Shown here one piece after another: positions 52,401 to 64,000 of a stretch of 64,000 bases of DNA. The position numbers were made by a program, and so were the translations under genes. The first letter of the stretch is position 1. The number at the start of each line of letters is the position of its first letter. Under the pieces are notes generated by a model. It had not been told where the DNA came from. It saw only the letters and a list, made by a program, of their open reading frames with translations, and searched no databases. Origin of the DNA: Zootoca vivipara (lineage: Eukaryota); contig NC_083282.1 in the NCBI RefSeq assembly GCF_963506605.1, forward strand, positions 59,892,001-59,956,000. The letters are read 5' to 3'.

Positions 52401-53886
52401 GGTCCAGACTGGCATTGCCCAACCCTCTGGGTCAATCCCAAGGATTCCTCCAGTTCCCTGCCCTTGTCCCATTCCTCCTACTCCTCTGACCAGTCCCACC
52501 AAGATGTTTCCACAGGAGTCATGACACTTACAGCAAGGGCGAGTAGTCTTCAGGCTTGTTGAATCGCGTGTGTGTTTTATTAGAGCCCCAAGATTTACCA
52601 GCCAGGTACAAAAGACACATGTTAAAAAATAATGAGCAGGGAAATTCTGAGTGCTTTCTGAGCCTAGGAATTTCATTTTTGGTACCAGAACTGAACTGAG
52701 TTCACTATCCTTTCAAAAAAATAAACAGTCCACTTCTGGTTTGCTTTTAAAAATAAAATTAAATCTCTACCTCCTAATTTAAGTGGGAAAAGTTTACTTT
52801 AGGATAGTTATTGTTAAGCAGCTAGAAGTTGAAAACTCTGGCAGGATCTACTGCAGACCACCTAGAACTCTACCAATACATCCCTGTCTTATCCCTTTAG
52901 CCTTTCTTGGATTTAATATATCACTTTAAGGACTTCTTTGCAATGGCCCTCAGAAAATCACTGCCCCAATTTGTGCCTGTTGAACTGAGTTGAAAGTGGA
53001 TTGTAGAAGGCCATCCATGGGTCAGGCAGAATTTGAACCCAGGTCTCCCAGATCAGTTAAACAATATTTTTTCTGGACCATCGTGGCTCTTGCTAACTAG
53101 TCCATTCCTGAAGTTTGAGTGCTAGCTCTTTCAGCACACCCACCCATCTTTTTTTCTGCATATATATATTTAATATAAAGCAAGTATCTCTGACCTATAT
53201 CCCAAGGCTGGCAATAGGCTGAGTGCTCTGAGGATGTTTGGAGTTATTCAACTACTACATACCGTAATTATAACGTACAGAGTCCATAATACAATGCTTT
53301 TCAGTTTGGCCAGGTTTTTCCAGCTTAAATATTTGTGGCGGGTCTTTGCATTTACAGAAAGTGTTCTGAATTCACCGATCCGGATTAAATTCATCTATTC
53401 ATCTGTCAGTAAGCAACATGTAGTTCCTTAATAGAGTGTGTCACATTTAATCTAAGCAATAAATAAACTTGCATCCTCACCTCCACCTCATAATAGTTTT
53501 ATGAGCTGTGCAATCCATCTAAAATGAGGTTGTTTAAAACTGGCATAGAGTTTGGTCCAGGTATCTGCTGACTAACCAATAAGAGGCATGATGTAACCAG
53601 CAACAGATATTAAGTTTCATTGTGCTGCAGTTAATTCCAGACATTTTCAGTTAACCATAGTTTCCCACCACAGTCACAAAACTAGGGTTACAAGGTTCGG
53701 AACAAGCTAGGATCTTAATCAACTTCAAACTGTTTAATGTCCTATCTGTTTCTGAACCTGTTAACCATAGTGCCCTGGTGCAGACATAATGGGAAGCTGT
53801 GGTTAATTGATTGCTATGCTAGATTCCCCAGCTTATTGCAGCACACAAATAAGGAAAGAGGTGGCATAGGGTGAGAGGCTTACACA

Positions 53887-54128
53887 CAGTGGCGGAGCTC
53901 CACGCTGTGGCACCAGGGGGCGGAGAGCAGGTGGGGCGGGGCTGGTGGGCATCCCGGGGGCGTGGCACGCTGTCCACAGGGGTGTGCCGTGTGTACCGGG
54001 GACGTGGCGCACCGCCTGCAGGGGCGTGGCGCCCAGCGCAGGCGGGGGGGCAGCCGCAATGGCACCCCACCAGGGTCGGGCTGCCGGGGGCGGTGCGCTC
54101 CCCCTGCACTCCTCTTCCTCCGCCAGTG
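53887..54128. mobile_element. GC-rich hAT MITE
   Basis: TIR cagtggcggag / ctccgccagtg; perfect 8-bp TSD cttacaca (53879-86 / 54129-36). Confidence 0.9.
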
Positions 54129-54310
54129 CTTACACACATCTTAGTTTTTTAAGCTGAGACATGAGAATCTGGATACAGTCTGCAAGGTTCCATTTAGATA
54201 ACATGCCAAGCCATGGTTTGTGCCAGGCATGTCTTGAGCTTCCAAAATATGCAAGTGCAAACAATGCTTCTCTGCTTTCTTTTTCCATCCGTTCAGCACT
54301 TCAGTCTCTA

Positions 54311-55958
54311 CCGTGTTTCCCCCTTTTTAAGACGTAGTCATAAAGTAAGCCATGGCAGGATTTTTAAGCATTTGAGAAATATAAGACATACCCCGAAAAT
54401 AAGACATACTTCCACACCGCGGAAACCAACCCCCACAGGCACCTCCACTCACAGAGTCACTCCTTGCAGCCGGCACTGCAGGAGCGCGCTCAGTTGTGAA
54501 GCCATGCTCCAGTCAGCTGTTCTGCAGCACTCCGACGCAGCGGAGGCGGCAAGCACGGGGAAGAAAATGGCGTTTAAAAATGCCATTTAAGAGGACCCTG
54601 TTTCTTGTCTCCCTGAGGGCAGCGGTCCCGGTGGCGGGCAGCCCCTCTGCCGCAGGAAGACACTGTAAAGTCTCCCTGGAAGAAGCAGTGAGCCCAGCTC
54701 CTCGATTCGGCGCCGCTGCGTCTCCAGCATTTTCTCTATGTTCTTGAGTTCTCCACGGCCCGGTTGGGGCTCTCCGAGCCGGGCACCCCGGGGCCGCCCC
54801 CCCCCCCCGCTCCCCCGTCCATAGAGAGTGAGAGGAAGAGGGGCGCGCGGGCACATGGCGCAGCGCAGCGGCCGGGGCCCCCAGCTCCTGATCGCGGCAA
54901 AGGGCACCACCCCGCACCAGCTACGGACCTGCCCCGCAGCCCGCCGAGGGCTGCCGGGCTACGGCAACCATCCTGCCTGCGGGAGCCTCGGGGAAAGAGC
55001 CTGCGGGAGCGCGAGGAAGAGCCGCTACTGCCGCTGCTGCAGAGGCACTGCGAGCGCGCCGCCCGGCGAGCCCAGGGCGAGCTCCAGCCCTGCGGGAGGG
55101 GCCAGGCACGGAGCAAAGGGGCGACACCGGAGGGTGGCCTCGATGAATCCCGGCCTGGCGGGCCATCTCCCGGCAGACTCGAGCACAGCCCGCCGCTGAA
55201 GGAGGCGCCGAGCGAGAGTCCTCAAGGCTGAAGCACTAAGGAAGGGCTCGCGCTTCCCCTTCTCCCTCCCTACCACCGGCGCGCGCTCCCCTGGGGAGGG
55301 GGAAGGGGTCAGGGGTGTTCAGATCACGATCTGGAGAGAAAGGGGCGTCAGGGGCGGGGAGGGGAAAGGTTGCATGGAGTTTGGTTGGGGCGCTCCCTTG
55401 GCAACAAAGTTTCCCGAGGCCCAAGACACATCAGAGAAGATGTCTGCAGCTGCAAAGGCAACTGCAAAAACCCTCTCCTTAATTTCTGGCTTGGCTGCGA
55501 GGGAAAGCGTCAGCACTGATTTTGGGTGCCGTTAAAGGCGACATGTTGAGAGATGCGCGCTATGAGGGGCAGGAAGCAAAAACTCCTGTGAAGTTCCCCT
55601 GCACAAGCACCCTCGAAAGGAGCCACCAGTCGCTGCATCCTGGGAGAAGCGTGGTGTTGCTCCTTCCTCGCCATCTCCAGGGGTGAGGGAGAGGAAAGCC
55701 CCCTTTCCTTGACAGCCACTGGGGTCCGATATGGGGGAGTGTTTGCCCACAGACGGCAGCTTGTTTGCCATCTCTTGTCGGTGGCAGATGGCTGGCTTTC
55801 TCCTTCCTCCCTCCCTCCCCACGCATGGGTGTGTGTGTGTACCGTAAAAACTGTATCGGTAATAATAATAAAAAGACATCCCACCAAAAGTAAGCCACCC
55901 TGTGTTTTTTTGAGAAAAAAATGTTATAAGACGGTGTCTTAAAAAAGGGGAAACACGG
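54311..55958. mobile_element. Non-autonomous TcMar-Tc2/pogo-type DNA transposon (1648 bp) with CpG-rich mosaic interior
   Basis: 23-bp TIRs CCGTGTTTCCCC(C/T)TTTTTAAGAC (22/23 match), TA on both sides, subterminal (T)AAGAC and AAGTAAGCCA repeats at both ends; no transposase ORF. Confidence 0.88.
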
Positions 55959-56142
55959 TAGGTGTAGTAATTCACTGAGGAAGAACAATCAGAACTGTAG
56001 TTTGTCAATTTAGATACCATGTTATAGCATACTTAGCACAAAATATGGTTCCTAATTCTTGCTCGCTGGTTTATTTTATACTACAGTTTGTCAGTTTTAA
56101 GCATCACACCATCAAACTGTGGCTAAGTATTCTTAACCATGA

Positions 56143-57491: not shown

Positions 57492-57628
57492 CAGGGCCGT
57501 CTTAAGCATATCTGGCGCCCTGGCGCCGTGATGCGAAGATCCCTACGGCGCCCCCCCCCCCCCGTTTCCCAGCACGGCTGTCTGGTGGGCGCAGCGCGCC
57601 ACCCAGCCTTGCCTTAGAGCCGGCCCTG
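57492..57628. mobile_element. GC-rich hAT (Tip100-like) MITE
   Basis: TIR cagggccg / cggccctg; perfect 8-bp TSD cctttgct (57484-91 / 57629-36). Confidence 0.9.
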
Positions 57629-60784: not shown

Positions 60785-61211
60785 TGTGAGGGGCAAGGGG
60801 TATCGCGAAGCCCCTCCCCTCCTGAGTTCCAGCCCAGCCCAGAGCACGACTGAGAGCAGGGAGAGCTCCAGCTCCAGCGGGGAAACAGGAAGTGGGATCC
60901 AAGGCTCTGGCAGGGTAGAAGAGCCAGCGTCCCAGGTGGGACAGGAAGGAGGAAAGAGGGGGGGAGACCCATCCCCCCAACTCCGGAACTTCGCAGAAAG
61001 CATCGGGGGAAGAGGATGGGGCTCCCCAAGTTGTTATGCTGGCGCAAGACGCGCCAAAAGCCATTCGGAGGTTCTGATGAAAGCTGAAAAGATGTGTCTC
61101 TGTAAATAGCTCTACCTTCAGCACTGTAAATACGCAGCACCAATAAAAAGATAAAATGCAGAGCGGTGGAGAGTCGTTACTCTGAAGTAGTCCCATCCGA
61201 CCACTGTGACA
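60785..61211 (+). repeat. 5' LTR (427 bp)
   Basis: TGT...ACA termini, purine-rich U3, AATAAA at 61142-47; followed after 2 nt by the putative PBS. Confidence 0.8.
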
Positions 61212-61213
61212 GC

Positions 61214-61224
61214 AACCTCCGAAT
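61214..61224 (+). promoter_or_regulatory. Self-priming primer-binding site (non-tRNA)
   Basis: AACCTCCGAAT is the exact reverse complement of ATTCGGAGGTT at 61063-73 within the LTR; no TGG-type tRNA PBS is present. Confidence 0.8.
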
Positions 61225-61253
61225 CTTTTTTGGGCTACTTTGGAGTTGCCGGG

Positions 61254-62485
61254 ATGAGCGCGCCAGAAGCGGAGACATGGCGGCAGATCGCGGAGAAAGC
61301 CCAGCAGGACCTGCAGGAACTGGCGTTGCAGGCACAGGGGGAATTAAAGGCGGCGAAGCAAGAAACGGAGAAAATTAAAGAGGACAGGCACAACCTTGCT
61401 GAACAGGTGAGAGCACTTCAGGACAAAGAGCAGCAGTTAAGGGCGGTAGCCGTGGACCTCCAAAACAAGTTGGATGCAGAGAGAAACAAGGGAGGAGGGG
61501 GAGCCCAACTCCAAGTGCTGCCAGGAAGGAGAGCAGGGACCCTAGTAAGCAAGTTCAATGGAGACCCAAGGGAATATCATGGCTTTGAGACTGAGATCGT
61601 GTATGCTCTTGAGCTGCACCATGATGAGTTCCCTGATGATGGGCACAGGGTAGCGTTTATTGTGGAACACCTTACCGGGGCAGCCAGGGAGTGGCTCAGA
61701 CCGTTAATCGCGACAAAAAATCCTTGCATGAAGAATGTCAAACTATTTTTAGAGGCTTTAAAAACTATGTATGCGTCCGATAGCCATATGGACCAGACCA
61801 AAGAGGAACTGCATAATTTAAGACAGAGAACAATGACAGTTCGCGAATATTGGGCGAGATTCACCATGCTGGTGCACAGACTGGGGTGGGAACTGCGCTC
61901 GCCTCCGATGGAAGCGGCGTTCTACCTGGGGTTGAATGAGGATGTGAAAGATGAGCTCTCGAGAGGTCCAAAGCCCAGTAATATGGATCAGCTGAGCAAA
62001 GCGGCTCTGGCGGTGGGGGTGAGACAGGAATCCCGGTGGAACGACAAGCAAGCAACGCGCGCAAAGCGGGCTTGGTTCCCACAGTCGCAGGAGAAGCCAC
62101 TCCCCCAACAGCCATCTCACGCCATGCCAGGGGCCAGCCGAGACCAGGAACCCATGCAAATTGATAGCGCGCGCGGGGGGGGGGGGCTTTTCAAACCCCA
62201 GCGGCGCCAAGACGCAGGGAAGGAAGAGGCGGGAATTGCTTTCTCTGCAACTCCCCTCAGCATCTCGTCAGAGACTGCCCACATCGCAGGGAATGGCAAG
62301 GAAAGGCGGGAACGGTTGTGCCCTCCCCCACTGACGCAGCACCACAGCAGGGAAACGAGACAGCCTGGCTGCAGGAGACAAGGGGCAGCAGCCAGGCGCA
62401 GTCAGCACACAACAGCCCCAACCCACCCGCCCGCACAGCGAGGAGCAGCGCCAGCCCACCCCCCCCAGAGCAGGGGTGGTTCTAG
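61254..62485 (+). CDS. gag: Gag (retrotransposon capsid plus CCHC nucleocapsid), frameshifted at the G12 run 62175-62186
   Basis: ATG at 61254; coiled-coil N-terminus, KFNGDP..LTGAAREW, LRQRTMTVREY, FYLGLNEDVKDEL, EPMQID; zinc knuckle CFLCNSPQHLVRDC (from 62237) lies in the -1 frame, ending TAG 62483-85. Confidence 0.88.
62350..62419 (+). promoter_or_regulatory. -1 programmed ribosomal frameshift signal (gag to pol)
   Basis: Slippery heptamer G GGA AAC 62350-56 in the CCHC frame, 6-nt spacer, 10-bp stem GCCTGGCTGC (62363-72) / GCAGCCAGGC (62388-97); pol lies in the -1 frame. Confidence 0.8.
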
Positions 62486-64000
62486 AAGTGACGCTAACGC
62501 TCCCTAATGGGTATCCCCCGACGGTCCTCGCGTTAATCGATTCGGGGGCGTCGGCCAACTTCTTTTCGAGAAACTTTGCAGAAGCGCACCAGATCCAACC
62601 TCTGCAGCTGGATTTTCCCCTGCACGTCTCCACCATTGACGGCAGGGAGTTGCTGGGAGGGGCCATCACCCACCAGACCCCCCCCATGAGAATGACGGTG
62701 GGGAGACACTCTGAGACACTGGCATTCAACGTCACCACCATCTCAGACCCCCCCATCGTCTTGGGCATGAGCTGGCTGGCGTGCCATGACCCCTCCATCA
62801 GTTGGCACCAGAGATGCATCACGTTTGGCTCAGACTATTGTCTGGAGCATTGCATGCAACACCAACCAGGGGAGGGGCCTCCAATAGCCACGGTGGCCAC
62901 CATGCACGTCAAGGGGGGTGAGACGATACCCAAGCAGTACTGGGACCTGCAGGAGGTCTTCAGTGAAGCGGAATCCGACCACCTGCCCCCGCACAGATCA
63001 TTTGACTGCCACATCAACCTGGTGCCGGGGGCCACGCTACCCCCAGCCAAGCTGTACTCCATGTCAGATCAGGAGCTGGAGGATCTGCGTGCGTTTATAG
63101 ACAAGAACCTCAAGAGGGGGTTCATCAGAGAAAGCAAGGCAGCAGGGGGCAGCCCGGTCTTCTGGGTGGACAAGAAAGACACGCAACAGCGCCGTCTTGT
63201 GGTGGATTTTAGACGGCTGAACAACATGACAGAACCGGTGGCTTTCCCAATGCCCAGAGTGGACGATCTGCTGACAGCGGCACGCAGGGGCAAGATCTTC
63301 ACCAAGCTTGACCTGAGGGGGGCGTACAACTTGATCAGGATCCGGGAAGGCGATGAGTGGAAAACCACGATGTTCACGCCTCTGGGCTCTTTTGAATATC
63401 TGGTGATGCCCTTCAGTTTGCAAGGGGGCTCAGCATGCTTCCAGGCCTTCATGCACCACGTCCTGGGGTCCCTTCTCTTCAAGAAATGCCTGGTCTTCTT
63501 GGATGACATCCTTATTTACTCCAATGACCCAGAGCAGCATGTGAAGGATGTCAGAGAGGTGTTGCAGCGCCTGAAGGAGCACCACCTGTATGTGAAACTG
63601 GAGAAGTGTAAGTTTCACACCAAAGAGGTGGACTTCCTGGGCTACAAACTGTCAGACACGGGGCTGGCGATGGACAAGGACAAGGTGCAGGCCATCCTGG
63701 ACTGGCACAGCCCCAGGACGCGCAAGGATGCCCAACGCCTACTAGGCTTCGCCAACTTCTACAGGAAGTTCATCAAGAACTTCTCTCGCGTTACGGCTCC
63801 CATCACGGACTGTCTGAGAGGCAAGCAGAAGTTCAGGTGGACACAGGAGGCGCAAGCAGCGTTCAAAAGCCTCAAGAGGGTGTTCGCTTCCGACCAGAAC
63901 CTGTTCCACGTGGTGCAGGATGCGCCCCTACGCGTTGAGACCGATGCTTCAGACAGAGCTTTGGGAGCGATCCTGTTGCAACTGGATGCCAACAGAGAAT
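62350..64000 (+). CDS. pol: Pol polyprotein (aspartic protease, reverse transcriptase, start of RNase H), open to the window end
   Basis: No stop codon in frame on manual translation; ALIDSGA (DSG 62539-47), KLDLRGAY, YLVMPFSL, VFLDDILIYS (FLDD 63496-507), LLGFANFYRKFI, VETDASD (ETDASD 63937-54); missing from the ORF track because it runs off the edge. Confidence 0.95.

What the first reader, a model, noticed from the sequence alone, without database searches (positions are those of the whole stretch)
54311..55958. Pack-type Tc2/pogo transposon apparently filled with captured CpG-rich gene fragments
Seen: near-perfect 23-bp TIRs and TA TSD, AT-rich subterminal repeats of about 100 bp, and a roughly 1.45-kb interior with no transposase and abrupt changes in composition. 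Short stretches translate like real protein in different orientations: minus 54692-54751 ELKNIEKMLETQRRRIEELG (coiled-coil-like), plus 54983-55096 EPRGKSLREREEEPLLPLLQRHCERAARRAQGELQPCG, and plus about 55398-55520 LATKFPEAQDTSEKMSAAAKATAKTLSLISGLAARESVSTD. A YY1-like AAAATGGCG lies at about 54564-72. Known: Pack-MULEs in plants capture GC-rich gene pieces, and such elements are much less documented in vertebrates. Inference: a mobile lizard Pack-TIR shuffling pieces of several host exons or promoters. I cannot identify the donor genes.
Basis: partly seen in the sequence, partly recalled or inferred. Interest (0 to 1): 0.7.

Follow-up and report, generated by a model that had tools for sequence, protein, structure and literature searches.

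The report
Active lizard transposon hauling gene starts
This cut-and-paste jumping gene carries a copied front end of the brain gene IQSEC2 plus a piece of another gene's intron, sits at 19 places and is missing at this spot in some other lizards; it belongs to a family of over a thousand elements, many carrying other genes' front ends, likely picked up by DNA-repair copying.

Summary
Confirmed and larger than proposed. Window 54311-55958 is a non-autonomous pogo-type element (23-bp TIRs, TA on both sides) with 19 dispersed copies, three identical apart from one C-run; contigs of 3 of 4 other DNA runs show the precise empty site. Interior: 729 bp of the IQSEC2 CpG island, 5' region and codons 1-48 (antisense, frameshifted, CpG-decaying), 422 bp from an intron of a Caskin gene, joined at 4-6 bp microhomologies, and a 166-bp piece without a donor. 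Related subfamilies show stepwise capture. The ends are shared by at least ~1,400 elements (2,789 exact end matches); 54 sampled fall into 31 interior types, 16 of 54 with a located TIR-less host donor (four further donors, all CpG islands). Eight intact 431-aa DD35D (Passer-like) transposase copies share the TIRs. The AGFG1 cargo joins exon 1 to exon 2 exactly, so one capture likely used spliced RNA or cDNA. No RNA reads over the interior in 3 runs. Published animal Pack-TIRs are mostly single-copy (4 multicopy in 100 genomes). This scan noted similar families in ray/shark genomes (unchecked).

The parts
54309..54310 (.). left TA target-site copy
   Evidence: empty site keeps one TA (joint 54308->55959)
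54311..54333 (+). left TIR, 23 bp
   Evidence: 22/23 complementary to right TIR; 24/25 with TA to the autonomous copies' left end
54311..54410 (+). family-conserved left end (~100 bp, 37% GC) with repeated short motifs, likely transposase-binding
   Evidence: (83-84% to autonomous copies); binding role inferred
54411..54511 (+). segment A, shared with the ~620-bp MITE of the same lineage
   Evidence: 92% to L029/L030
54512..54677 (.). segment X, 59% GC, no donor found; holds an imperfect hairpin with the YY1-like motif (54564-54572)
   Evidence: 24 of 24 matches are element copies; 34-nt pattern with up to 3 mismatches: 24 hits, all elements
54678..54699 (-). 22-bp inverted piece of the MITE's own interior; its last 6 bases are the microhomology to IQSEC2
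54694..55422 (-). captured IQSEC2 CpG island: upstream/5' region, start codon (54822-54820) and codons 1-48, frameshifted
   Evidence: 84% to G000:C16:40149472-40150235; donor ORF matches PDB 9m46_A IQSEC2, E 6.8e-24; CpG decay
55419..55840 (+). captured non-coding piece from a large 5' intron of a Caskin gene; 4-bp microhomology at 55419-55422
   Evidence: 95% to G000:C14:30302814-30303230; 20 of 20 matches = 19 elements + this TIR-less locus; gene context
55841..55958 (+). family-conserved right end
   Evidence: 93% over 95 bp to autonomous copies
55936..55958 (-). right TIR, 23 bp
   Evidence: 25/25 with TA to autonomous copies
55959..55960 (.). right TA target-site copy

Best explanation
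This is a recently mobile, non-autonomous pogo-type DNA transposon that carries copied host DNA (the IQSEC2 gene start and a Caskin intron piece), likely moved in trans by the intact DD35D transposase copies that share its ends and likely filled step by step by repair synthesis that switched templates at short microhomologies. Shown: ends, target duplication, 19 copies, empty sites, two donors, junction microhomologies, nested subfamilies (620-bp MITE -> +X+IQSEC2 -> distal part replaced by the Caskin piece), decay of the cargo, transposase copies with the same TIRs. Inferred: that these transposases moved it; that capture happened during gap repair or fork switching; that the cargo is passive; that the bias to CpG-island gene starts comes from open chromatin at promoters being the easiest template (or from such cargo helping copies stay accessible).
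For: Mobility: 19 copies on 11 contigs with unrelated flanks, 18 of 19 TA/TA; L001-L003 differ by 0 substitutions in 1,649 columns; empty site in 3 of 4 DNA runs. Direction donor->element: donor ORF intact and continuing 226 aa; 30 of 181 donor CpG positions changed (24 C>T/G>A) vs 31 of 528 others, P 4e-5; CG count 96 -> 68; match limits coincide with segment joints and no family end lies in 30 kb (C16) or 140 kb (C14) around the donors. Order: non-CpG divergence from donor 4.6-6.1% for IQSEC2, 3.6-4.4% for Caskin; four older copies carry a longer IQSEC2 piece and lack the Caskin piece. Microhomology: 6 bp (chance 0.003) and 4 bp (0.019) by random breakpoints in the same templates. Transposase: 8 copies, 431 aa, 0-2 aa apart, D174-D278-D314, DDE_1 + HTH_Tnp_Tc5. 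Family-wide: 2,789 exact end matches, control 0; TIR-less donors for four more cargos.
Against: No capture intermediate or founding locus was found. The third joint (Caskin/right end) has at most 1-2 bp of homology. Segment X has no donor in the assembly. The AGFG1 cargo is spliced, which plain DNA gap repair from the gene cannot give. One copy (L027) took 835 bp from beside a solo right end on C5, a different route. Many sampled interiors are GC-rich tandem arrays shared within the family or unidentified; only 16 of 54 have a located donor, and the cargos tested were picked partly because they looked like gene starts, so the CpG-island bias is not an unbiased estimate. Insertion sites are not CpG islands (0 of 36 1-kb flanks), so target choice alone does not explain the bias.
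Confidence: 0.8

Rival explanations
1. Cargo is taken by neighbour capture: an element lands beside a gene start and a later transposition or deletion uses one end plus flanking DNA (end bypass, Pack-CACTA-like), or recombines with a distant half-element.
For: L027's extra 835 bp plus right end match C5:64608517-64609508, where host DNA abuts a solo right end with no left end in 18.5 kb upstream. Passer inserts preferentially near gene starts in human cells (PMC9976928, passages).
Against: No end of this family near the IQSEC2 (30 kb), Caskin (140 kb), C14:7.0 Mb (7 kb) or C3:67.87 Mb (20 kb) donors; only sister-family elements 2.5 kb from the C13 donor and about 26 kb from the AGFG1 exon. Cargos are sandwiched between family-internal pieces with microhomologies.
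Confidence: 0.15
2. Capture is generally RNA-templated: promoter-proximal transcripts or their cDNA patch the break left in the element, which would explain both the gene-start bias and the spliced AGFG1 cargo.
For: AGFG1 cargo joins the last base of exon 1 (C5:28919835) to the first base of exon 2 (C5:28917519), skipping a 2.3-kb GT-AG intron; 29 of 50 fetched motif loci show the junction and 39 of 50 the exon-2 piece. Five of seven located donors are CpG islands.
Against: The C13 cargo keeps its first intron; the Caskin piece is deep intronic; the IQSEC2 piece reaches about 750 bp upstream of the start codon, past the island edge. A processed pseudogene, or intron loss after DNA capture, would also give the AGFG1 junction; no retrocopy was among the 54 motif hits but the motif is strict.
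Confidence: 0.15
3. The cargo is functional: the captured IQSEC2 promoter drives transcripts, or a short coiled-coil peptide or small RNAs that act on IQSEC2, and copies are kept for that.
For: CpG o/e is still 0.69. In 9 of 19 copies two frameshifts put about 20 residues of the IQSEC2 coiled coil back in frame with the captured start codon.
Against: In the window copy that frame stops after 28 residues; none of 24 copies keeps the donor's 48 codons. Zero depth over 54592-55737 in 3 raw RNA runs (about 6 in 100 of each run read, tissue not known). CpG loss fits methylated, silent DNA. The insertion is not fixed.
Confidence: 0.07
4. A native CpG island between two MITE halves, a segmental duplication or an assembly artefact.
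For: None beyond the CpG-island look of the interior.
Against: 19 copies with unrelated flanks; precise empty site in other samples and interior contigs present in all 4 DNA runs laid.
Confidence: 0.01

Closest known systems
Animal Pack-TIRs, multicopy class (Tan et al. 2021, PMC8277862; read: abstract, sections 7, 9, 14, other passages, term search of supplements)
   Same: TIR element with host DNA inside, TIR-less parent on another chromosome, distinct target sites, short microhomologies, GC-rich cargo in multicopy cases.
   Different: They found 370 Pack-TIRs in 100 genomes, only 4 multicopy (example: 3 copies, one 291-bp piece), mostly old inactive elements; lizard anoCar2 had 0 with almost no TIR annotation. 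Here: 19-24 copies of one two-donor chimera, at least 50 elements with AGFG1 exon 1, a family of at least ~1,400 elements, intact transposases and a polymorphic insertion. Their filters (90% identity, unique best hit, no intronless cargo) would drop this case.
Plant Pack-MULEs and Pack-TYPE elements incl. Pack-Mariner (Gisby and Catoni 2022, PMC8903248; passages read)
   Same: Conserved ends, variable interiors from several loci, TA target for Pack-Mariners, stepwise subfamilies.
   Different: Plant; most Pack-Mariners are low copy; pogo DD35D driver here. The GC-rich 5' bias of Pack-MULEs is recalled, and cited only indirectly in PMC8277862.
Bat Helitrons with captured promoters and first exons (Thomas et al. 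2014, PMC4224331; passages read)
   Same: Vertebrate, bias to gene 5' ends, thousands of copies, sequential capture, some intronless cargo.
   Different: Rolling-circle, no TIR or TA duplication; their retroposed cargos are 3'-anchored with poly-A and TSD, whereas the spliced AGFG1 piece here is the 5' end only.
Passer (PS) family of pogo transposons (Gao 2020 PMC7386202; Wang 2023 PMC9976928; passages read)
   Same: DD35D, HTH_Tnp_Tc5, 400-500 aa, 1.6-4 kb, short TIRs, TA target with A at -3 and T at +3 favoured (26 of 52 each); present in reptiles.
   Different: Gene capture was not seen in the passages read; no Brk domain detected; no tree built here.
Anolis hobo hAT elements with extraneous DNA (Novick et al. 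2010, PMC3014272; passages read)
   Same: Lizard TIR elements with shared ends and filler DNA, inter-element recombination.
   Different: hAT; filler described as genomic DNA with TE fragments, the word exon does not occur in the text.

Membership tests
Pack-TIR (multicopy) | Both ends of one TIR element with target duplication | tested here: met
Pack-TIR (multicopy) | Interior copied from host locus whose parent copy has no TIR element at its edges | tested here: met
   IQSEC2 and Caskin donors; segment X without donor
Pack-TIR (multicopy) | Several copies at distinct target sites | tested here: met
   19 copies, different flanks
Pack-TIR (multicopy) | No cargo-free element at the orthologous site (transposition, not in-place gap filling) | tested here: met
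   empty site with one TA in 3 of 4 DNA runs; this locus only
Pack-TIR (Tan et al. operational filter) | At least 90% identity to a unique parent | tested here: inconclusive
   Caskin piece 95% passes; IQSEC2 piece 84% with gaps does not; a youth filter, not a biological definition
pogo/Passer (autonomous partner) | DD35D catalytic triad | tested here: met
   D174-D278-D314 in 8 of 8 copies, read from sequence motifs
pogo/Passer (autonomous partner) | DDE_1 plus HTH_Tnp_Tc5 (with or without BrkDBD) | tested here: met
   single HTH_Tnp_Tc5 is allowed per PMC7386202
pogo/Passer (autonomous partner) | Short TIR, TA target, 1.6-4 kb, 400-500 aa | tested here: met
   3.1-3.7 kb, 431 aa, 23-bp TIR
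pogo/Passer (autonomous partner) | Placement in the Passer clade on a transposase tree (Fot is also DD35D) | not tested
   no reference transposases fetched; PDB search gave no hit
pogo/Passer (autonomous partner) | Transposase mobilises these ends | not testable with these tools
   needs a cell assay
Pack-MULE | Long TIRs and 9-10 bp target duplication | tested here: not met
   23-bp TIR, TA; works like a Pack-MULE, is not one
Helitron with captured exons | No TIR, no target duplication | tested here: not met
   TIRs and TA duplication present

The most novel reading that the evidence does not exclude
A living vertebrate cut-and-paste family works as a genome-wide sampler of gene starts: one intact Passer-type transposase drives over a thousand elements that keep swapping in CpG-island promoters and first exons of many genes, partly by copying spliced RNA into the DNA element, and cargo that keeps the element open is favoured - a Pack-MULE-scale system caught in action in a reptile.
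Probability: 0.3. Interest if true: 0.82.

Novelty: new variant of a known kind. Interest (0 to 1): 0.64.

Why it matters
Gene capture by TIR transposons is counted as rare and mostly one-off in animals. Here it is frequent, serial and still moving, with the transposase intact and insertions varying between individuals, so the open question of how Pack elements acquire cargo becomes testable in a vertebrate: by a census of junctions, by population data and by a cell assay. Dozens of extra copies of promoters and first exons (IQSEC2, AGFG1 and others) also confound CpG-island calls, gene models, methylation and read mapping in this genome. The exactly spliced AGFG1 cargo points to an RNA step inside a DNA transposon lineage.

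Tried and rejected
Donor for segment X: none by DNA search, by a 34-nt pattern with 3 mismatches or among fetched loci. Coding exon at the C14 donor: 276 frames within 20 kb gave only reverse-transcriptase fragments and sub-threshold hits; the gene was found only on widening. Two apparent donors were other family copies: C2:71366664 for L099 and C9:14110095 for L164. Captured host promoter as leader of the autonomous element: not supported; the 446-bp leader matches 8 autonomous copies and other repeats, 8 of 9 fetched lower matches had a family end and the ninth was a short piece found at 25 or more places (40 of 57 candidates scored). Pfam on 207 frames of 21 sampled interiors named only ArfGap above noise. 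PDB gave no name for the C13 exon or the transposase; Pfam none for the C13 and C14:7.0 Mb exons, so MYO1D-like, RFX7-like and CASKIN1 (versus CASKIN2) are recalled names. The protein atlas gave no answer. Host gene around the insertion: none found among 88 long window frames; short exons would be missed. Literature searches that found no description of this family; Repbase and Dfam were not available.

Full report
Observation. The element spans window 54311-55958 (1,648 bp), with 23-bp TIRs (22 of 23 complementary) and TA on both sides. The ends are 37-39% GC, the interior 57-71% GC by segment, CpG o/e 0.69. No long interior frame matches a Pfam family. The ~100-bp ends are not inverted repeats of each other beyond 34-35 bases; they are family ends with short repeated motifs.

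Mobility. A search of the own genome (1.44 Gb, 48 contigs; 40 of 4,052 candidates scored) gave 18 near full-length copies at 93-100% identity and one with an internal deletion; the Caskin tile confirms 19 (20 of 20 candidates scored). Flanks are unrelated and 18 of 19 have TA/TA. L001, L002 and L003 differ by no substitution in 1,649 columns, L004 by 2, the oldest by 76. Contigs of 3 of 4 public DNA runs laid (three samples) join 54308 to 55959, leaving one TA; the fourth shows no contig at that joint. The insertion is therefore not fixed.

Donors of this copy. Positions 54694-55422 match C16:40149472-40150235 on the opposite strand at 84%. That locus has no family end in 30 kb, is a CpG island (GC 0.69-0.77, o/e 0.9-1.0) and opens a 226-codon exon whose product matches the IQSEC2 N-terminal chain 9m46_A at E 6.8e-24. 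The element holds about 600 bp upstream of the start codon and codons 1-48. Direction is shown by decay in the element: 30 of 181 donor CpG positions changed (24 by C>T or G>A) against 31 of 528 others (Fisher P 4e-5), and deletions break the frame. Positions 55419-55840 match one TIR-less locus, C14:30302814-30303230, at 95%, between the start-codon exon (30.2526 Mb) and the ankyrin exons (from 30.3252 Mb) of a Caskin gene; it is not a CpG island. Segment X (54512-54677) has no donor.

History. A ~620-bp MITE shares the left 203 bp and the right end. Four older copies carry X, a longer IQSEC2 piece (to about 750 bp upstream) and the MITE's distal part; the 19 copies of this subfamily replaced that distal part with the Caskin piece. 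All share the same left IQSEC2 breakpoint, so one capture. Non-CpG divergence from donor is 4.6-6.1% for IQSEC2 and 3.6-4.4% for Caskin, fitting that order. The X/IQSEC2 joint runs through a 22-bp inverted piece of the MITE and shares 6 bp with the donor; the IQSEC2/Caskin joint shares 4 bp (chance 0.003 and 0.019); the third joint shares at most 1-2 bp. One copy (L027) instead took 835 bp and its right end from C5, where host DNA abuts a solo right end.

The family. A 22-letter TA+TIR pattern has 1,402 forward and 1,387 reverse exact matches, control 0: at least about 1,400 elements. From the first 100 listed matches (C1, first 53 Mb; about 66 elements) I fetched 56 loci; 54 could be delimited (one mis-paired and one without partner dropped), 52 with TA on both sides. 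They fall into 31 interior clusters at 80% reciprocal coverage (27 at 50%), median 1.4 kb; 40 of 54 interiors have GC above 0.55 and CpG o/e above 0.6. TIR-less donors were located for four cargos: AGFG1 exon 1 (Pfam ArfGap, PDB 2olm E 9e-30; native locus C5:28.92 Mb); a first coding exon plus intron start on C13, 11 other matches (MYO1D-like, recalled); a first coding exon on C14:7.02 Mb (RFX7-like, recalled); and an unnamed island on C3 copied whole at 98%, 8 other matches. All four are CpG islands. That covers 16 of 54 sampled elements, partly by cluster membership; the others were not searched, and several are GC-rich tandem arrays of a family-internal unit. The tested cargos were not picked blind. 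Insertion sites themselves are ordinary DNA (median flank GC 0.44; 0 of 36 flanks island-like).

Spliced cargo. A strict AGFG1 motif has 54 hits; 46 of 50 fetched lie at family ends, as do the 4 known ones; one is the native gene and three are other, unrelated copies. In the native gene exon 1 ends at C5:28919835 and exon 2 starts at 28917519; element copies join these two bases exactly (29 of 50 show the junction, 39 the exon-2 piece; the rest have deletions or variants). This needs a spliced template: RNA, cDNA, a retrocopy, or intron loss after capture. The C13 cargo keeps its intron and the Caskin piece is intronic, so an RNA route is not general.

Driver. A DDE_1 search (118 of 118 candidates scored) gave a group of near-identical intact frames. 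Eight of 18 fetched sit in 3.1-3.7-kb elements with the same TIRs and encode a 431-aa protein, 0-2 residues apart, with HTH_Tnp_Tc5, DDE_1 and a DD35D triad. These features fit Passer as described in PMC7386202 and PMC9976928 (passages); no tree was built. That they mobilise this element is inferred from shared ends and youth.

Function. In the window copy the captured start codon gives 28 residues and stops; in 9 of 19 copies a double frameshift restores about 20 coiled-coil residues; none of 24 keeps the donor frame. Three raw RNA runs (about 6 in 100 of each read, tissue not known) gave no depth over 54592-55737; one guessed-RNA contig set had small pieces there. The cargo is best read as passive.

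Comparison and verdict. Tan et al. (PMC8277862; sections 7, 9, 14 read; supplement term search) report 4 multicopy families among 370 animal Pack-TIRs, and 0 for the lizard, which had almost no TIR annotation. Plant Pack-TYPE elements (PMC8903248, passages) and bat Helitrons (PMC4224331, passages) reach this scale; Anolis hobo elements take filler DNA (PMC3014272, passages). My searches found no account of this family; repeat databases and subscription papers were not searchable, and bioRxiv supplements were closed. Earlier notes of this scan describe high-copy pogo/Tc2-type Pack-TIRs in ray or shark genomes and a gene-start-carrying Helitron in this genome (unchecked; they also call the host the common lizard, not tested here). 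Verdict: a real multicopy, two-donor Pack-TIR from an active Passer-like family with unusually wide capture; new variant of a known kind; interest 0.64.

Noticed in passing
L181, L089 and others vs G000:C5:28919835/28917519: AGFG1 cargo of the same family joins exon 1 to exon 2 exactly, without the 2.3-kb intron: a spliced template inside a DNA transposon.
   Followed up: partly
L244 (C4:1.322 Mb), L245 (C10:2.391 Mb), L246 (C19:41.747 Mb): Three further diverged copies of AGFG1 exon 1 and promoter without this family's ends (one keeps the intron start); likely carried by another element class.
   Followed up: no
L130-L134, L143-L146, L148:737-2131: Sister families with 91-94% identical transposase DNA but different TIR variants and 5' leaders; a sister non-autonomous element on C13 also has a GC-rich, CpG-rich interior.
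   Followed up: no
L135:1230-2025: The autonomous element's leader holds a 158-bp tandem array whose unit number varies between copies (3.1-3.7 kb total).
   Followed up: partly
L067, L083, L068, L082, L092, L160, L162, L165: Many interiors are arrays of a ~120-130-bp GC-rich unit also present once in the small MITE; origin unknown.
   Followed up: no
L062, L064, L069, L071, L073, L081, L085, L158: Largest sampled cluster (8 of 54), 96-100% alike, AT-richer interior without Pfam hit; donor not searched.
   Followed up: no
L086:1485-5984 (-): One AGFG1-carrying copy holds a 6.1-kb nested insertion with a 1,500-codon open frame, not identified.
   Followed up: no
window 61191-63999: Ty3/gypsy-like LTR retrotransposon with open gag and protease-RT frames running off the window.
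   Followed up: no
window about 53880-54130 and 57492-57628: Two short GC-rich, very high-copy repeats flank the element (depth steps); not identified.
   Followed up: no
window 54565-54588: The YY1-like motif is one arm of a hairpin that is a perfect 11-bp inverted pair in older copies.
   Followed up: no
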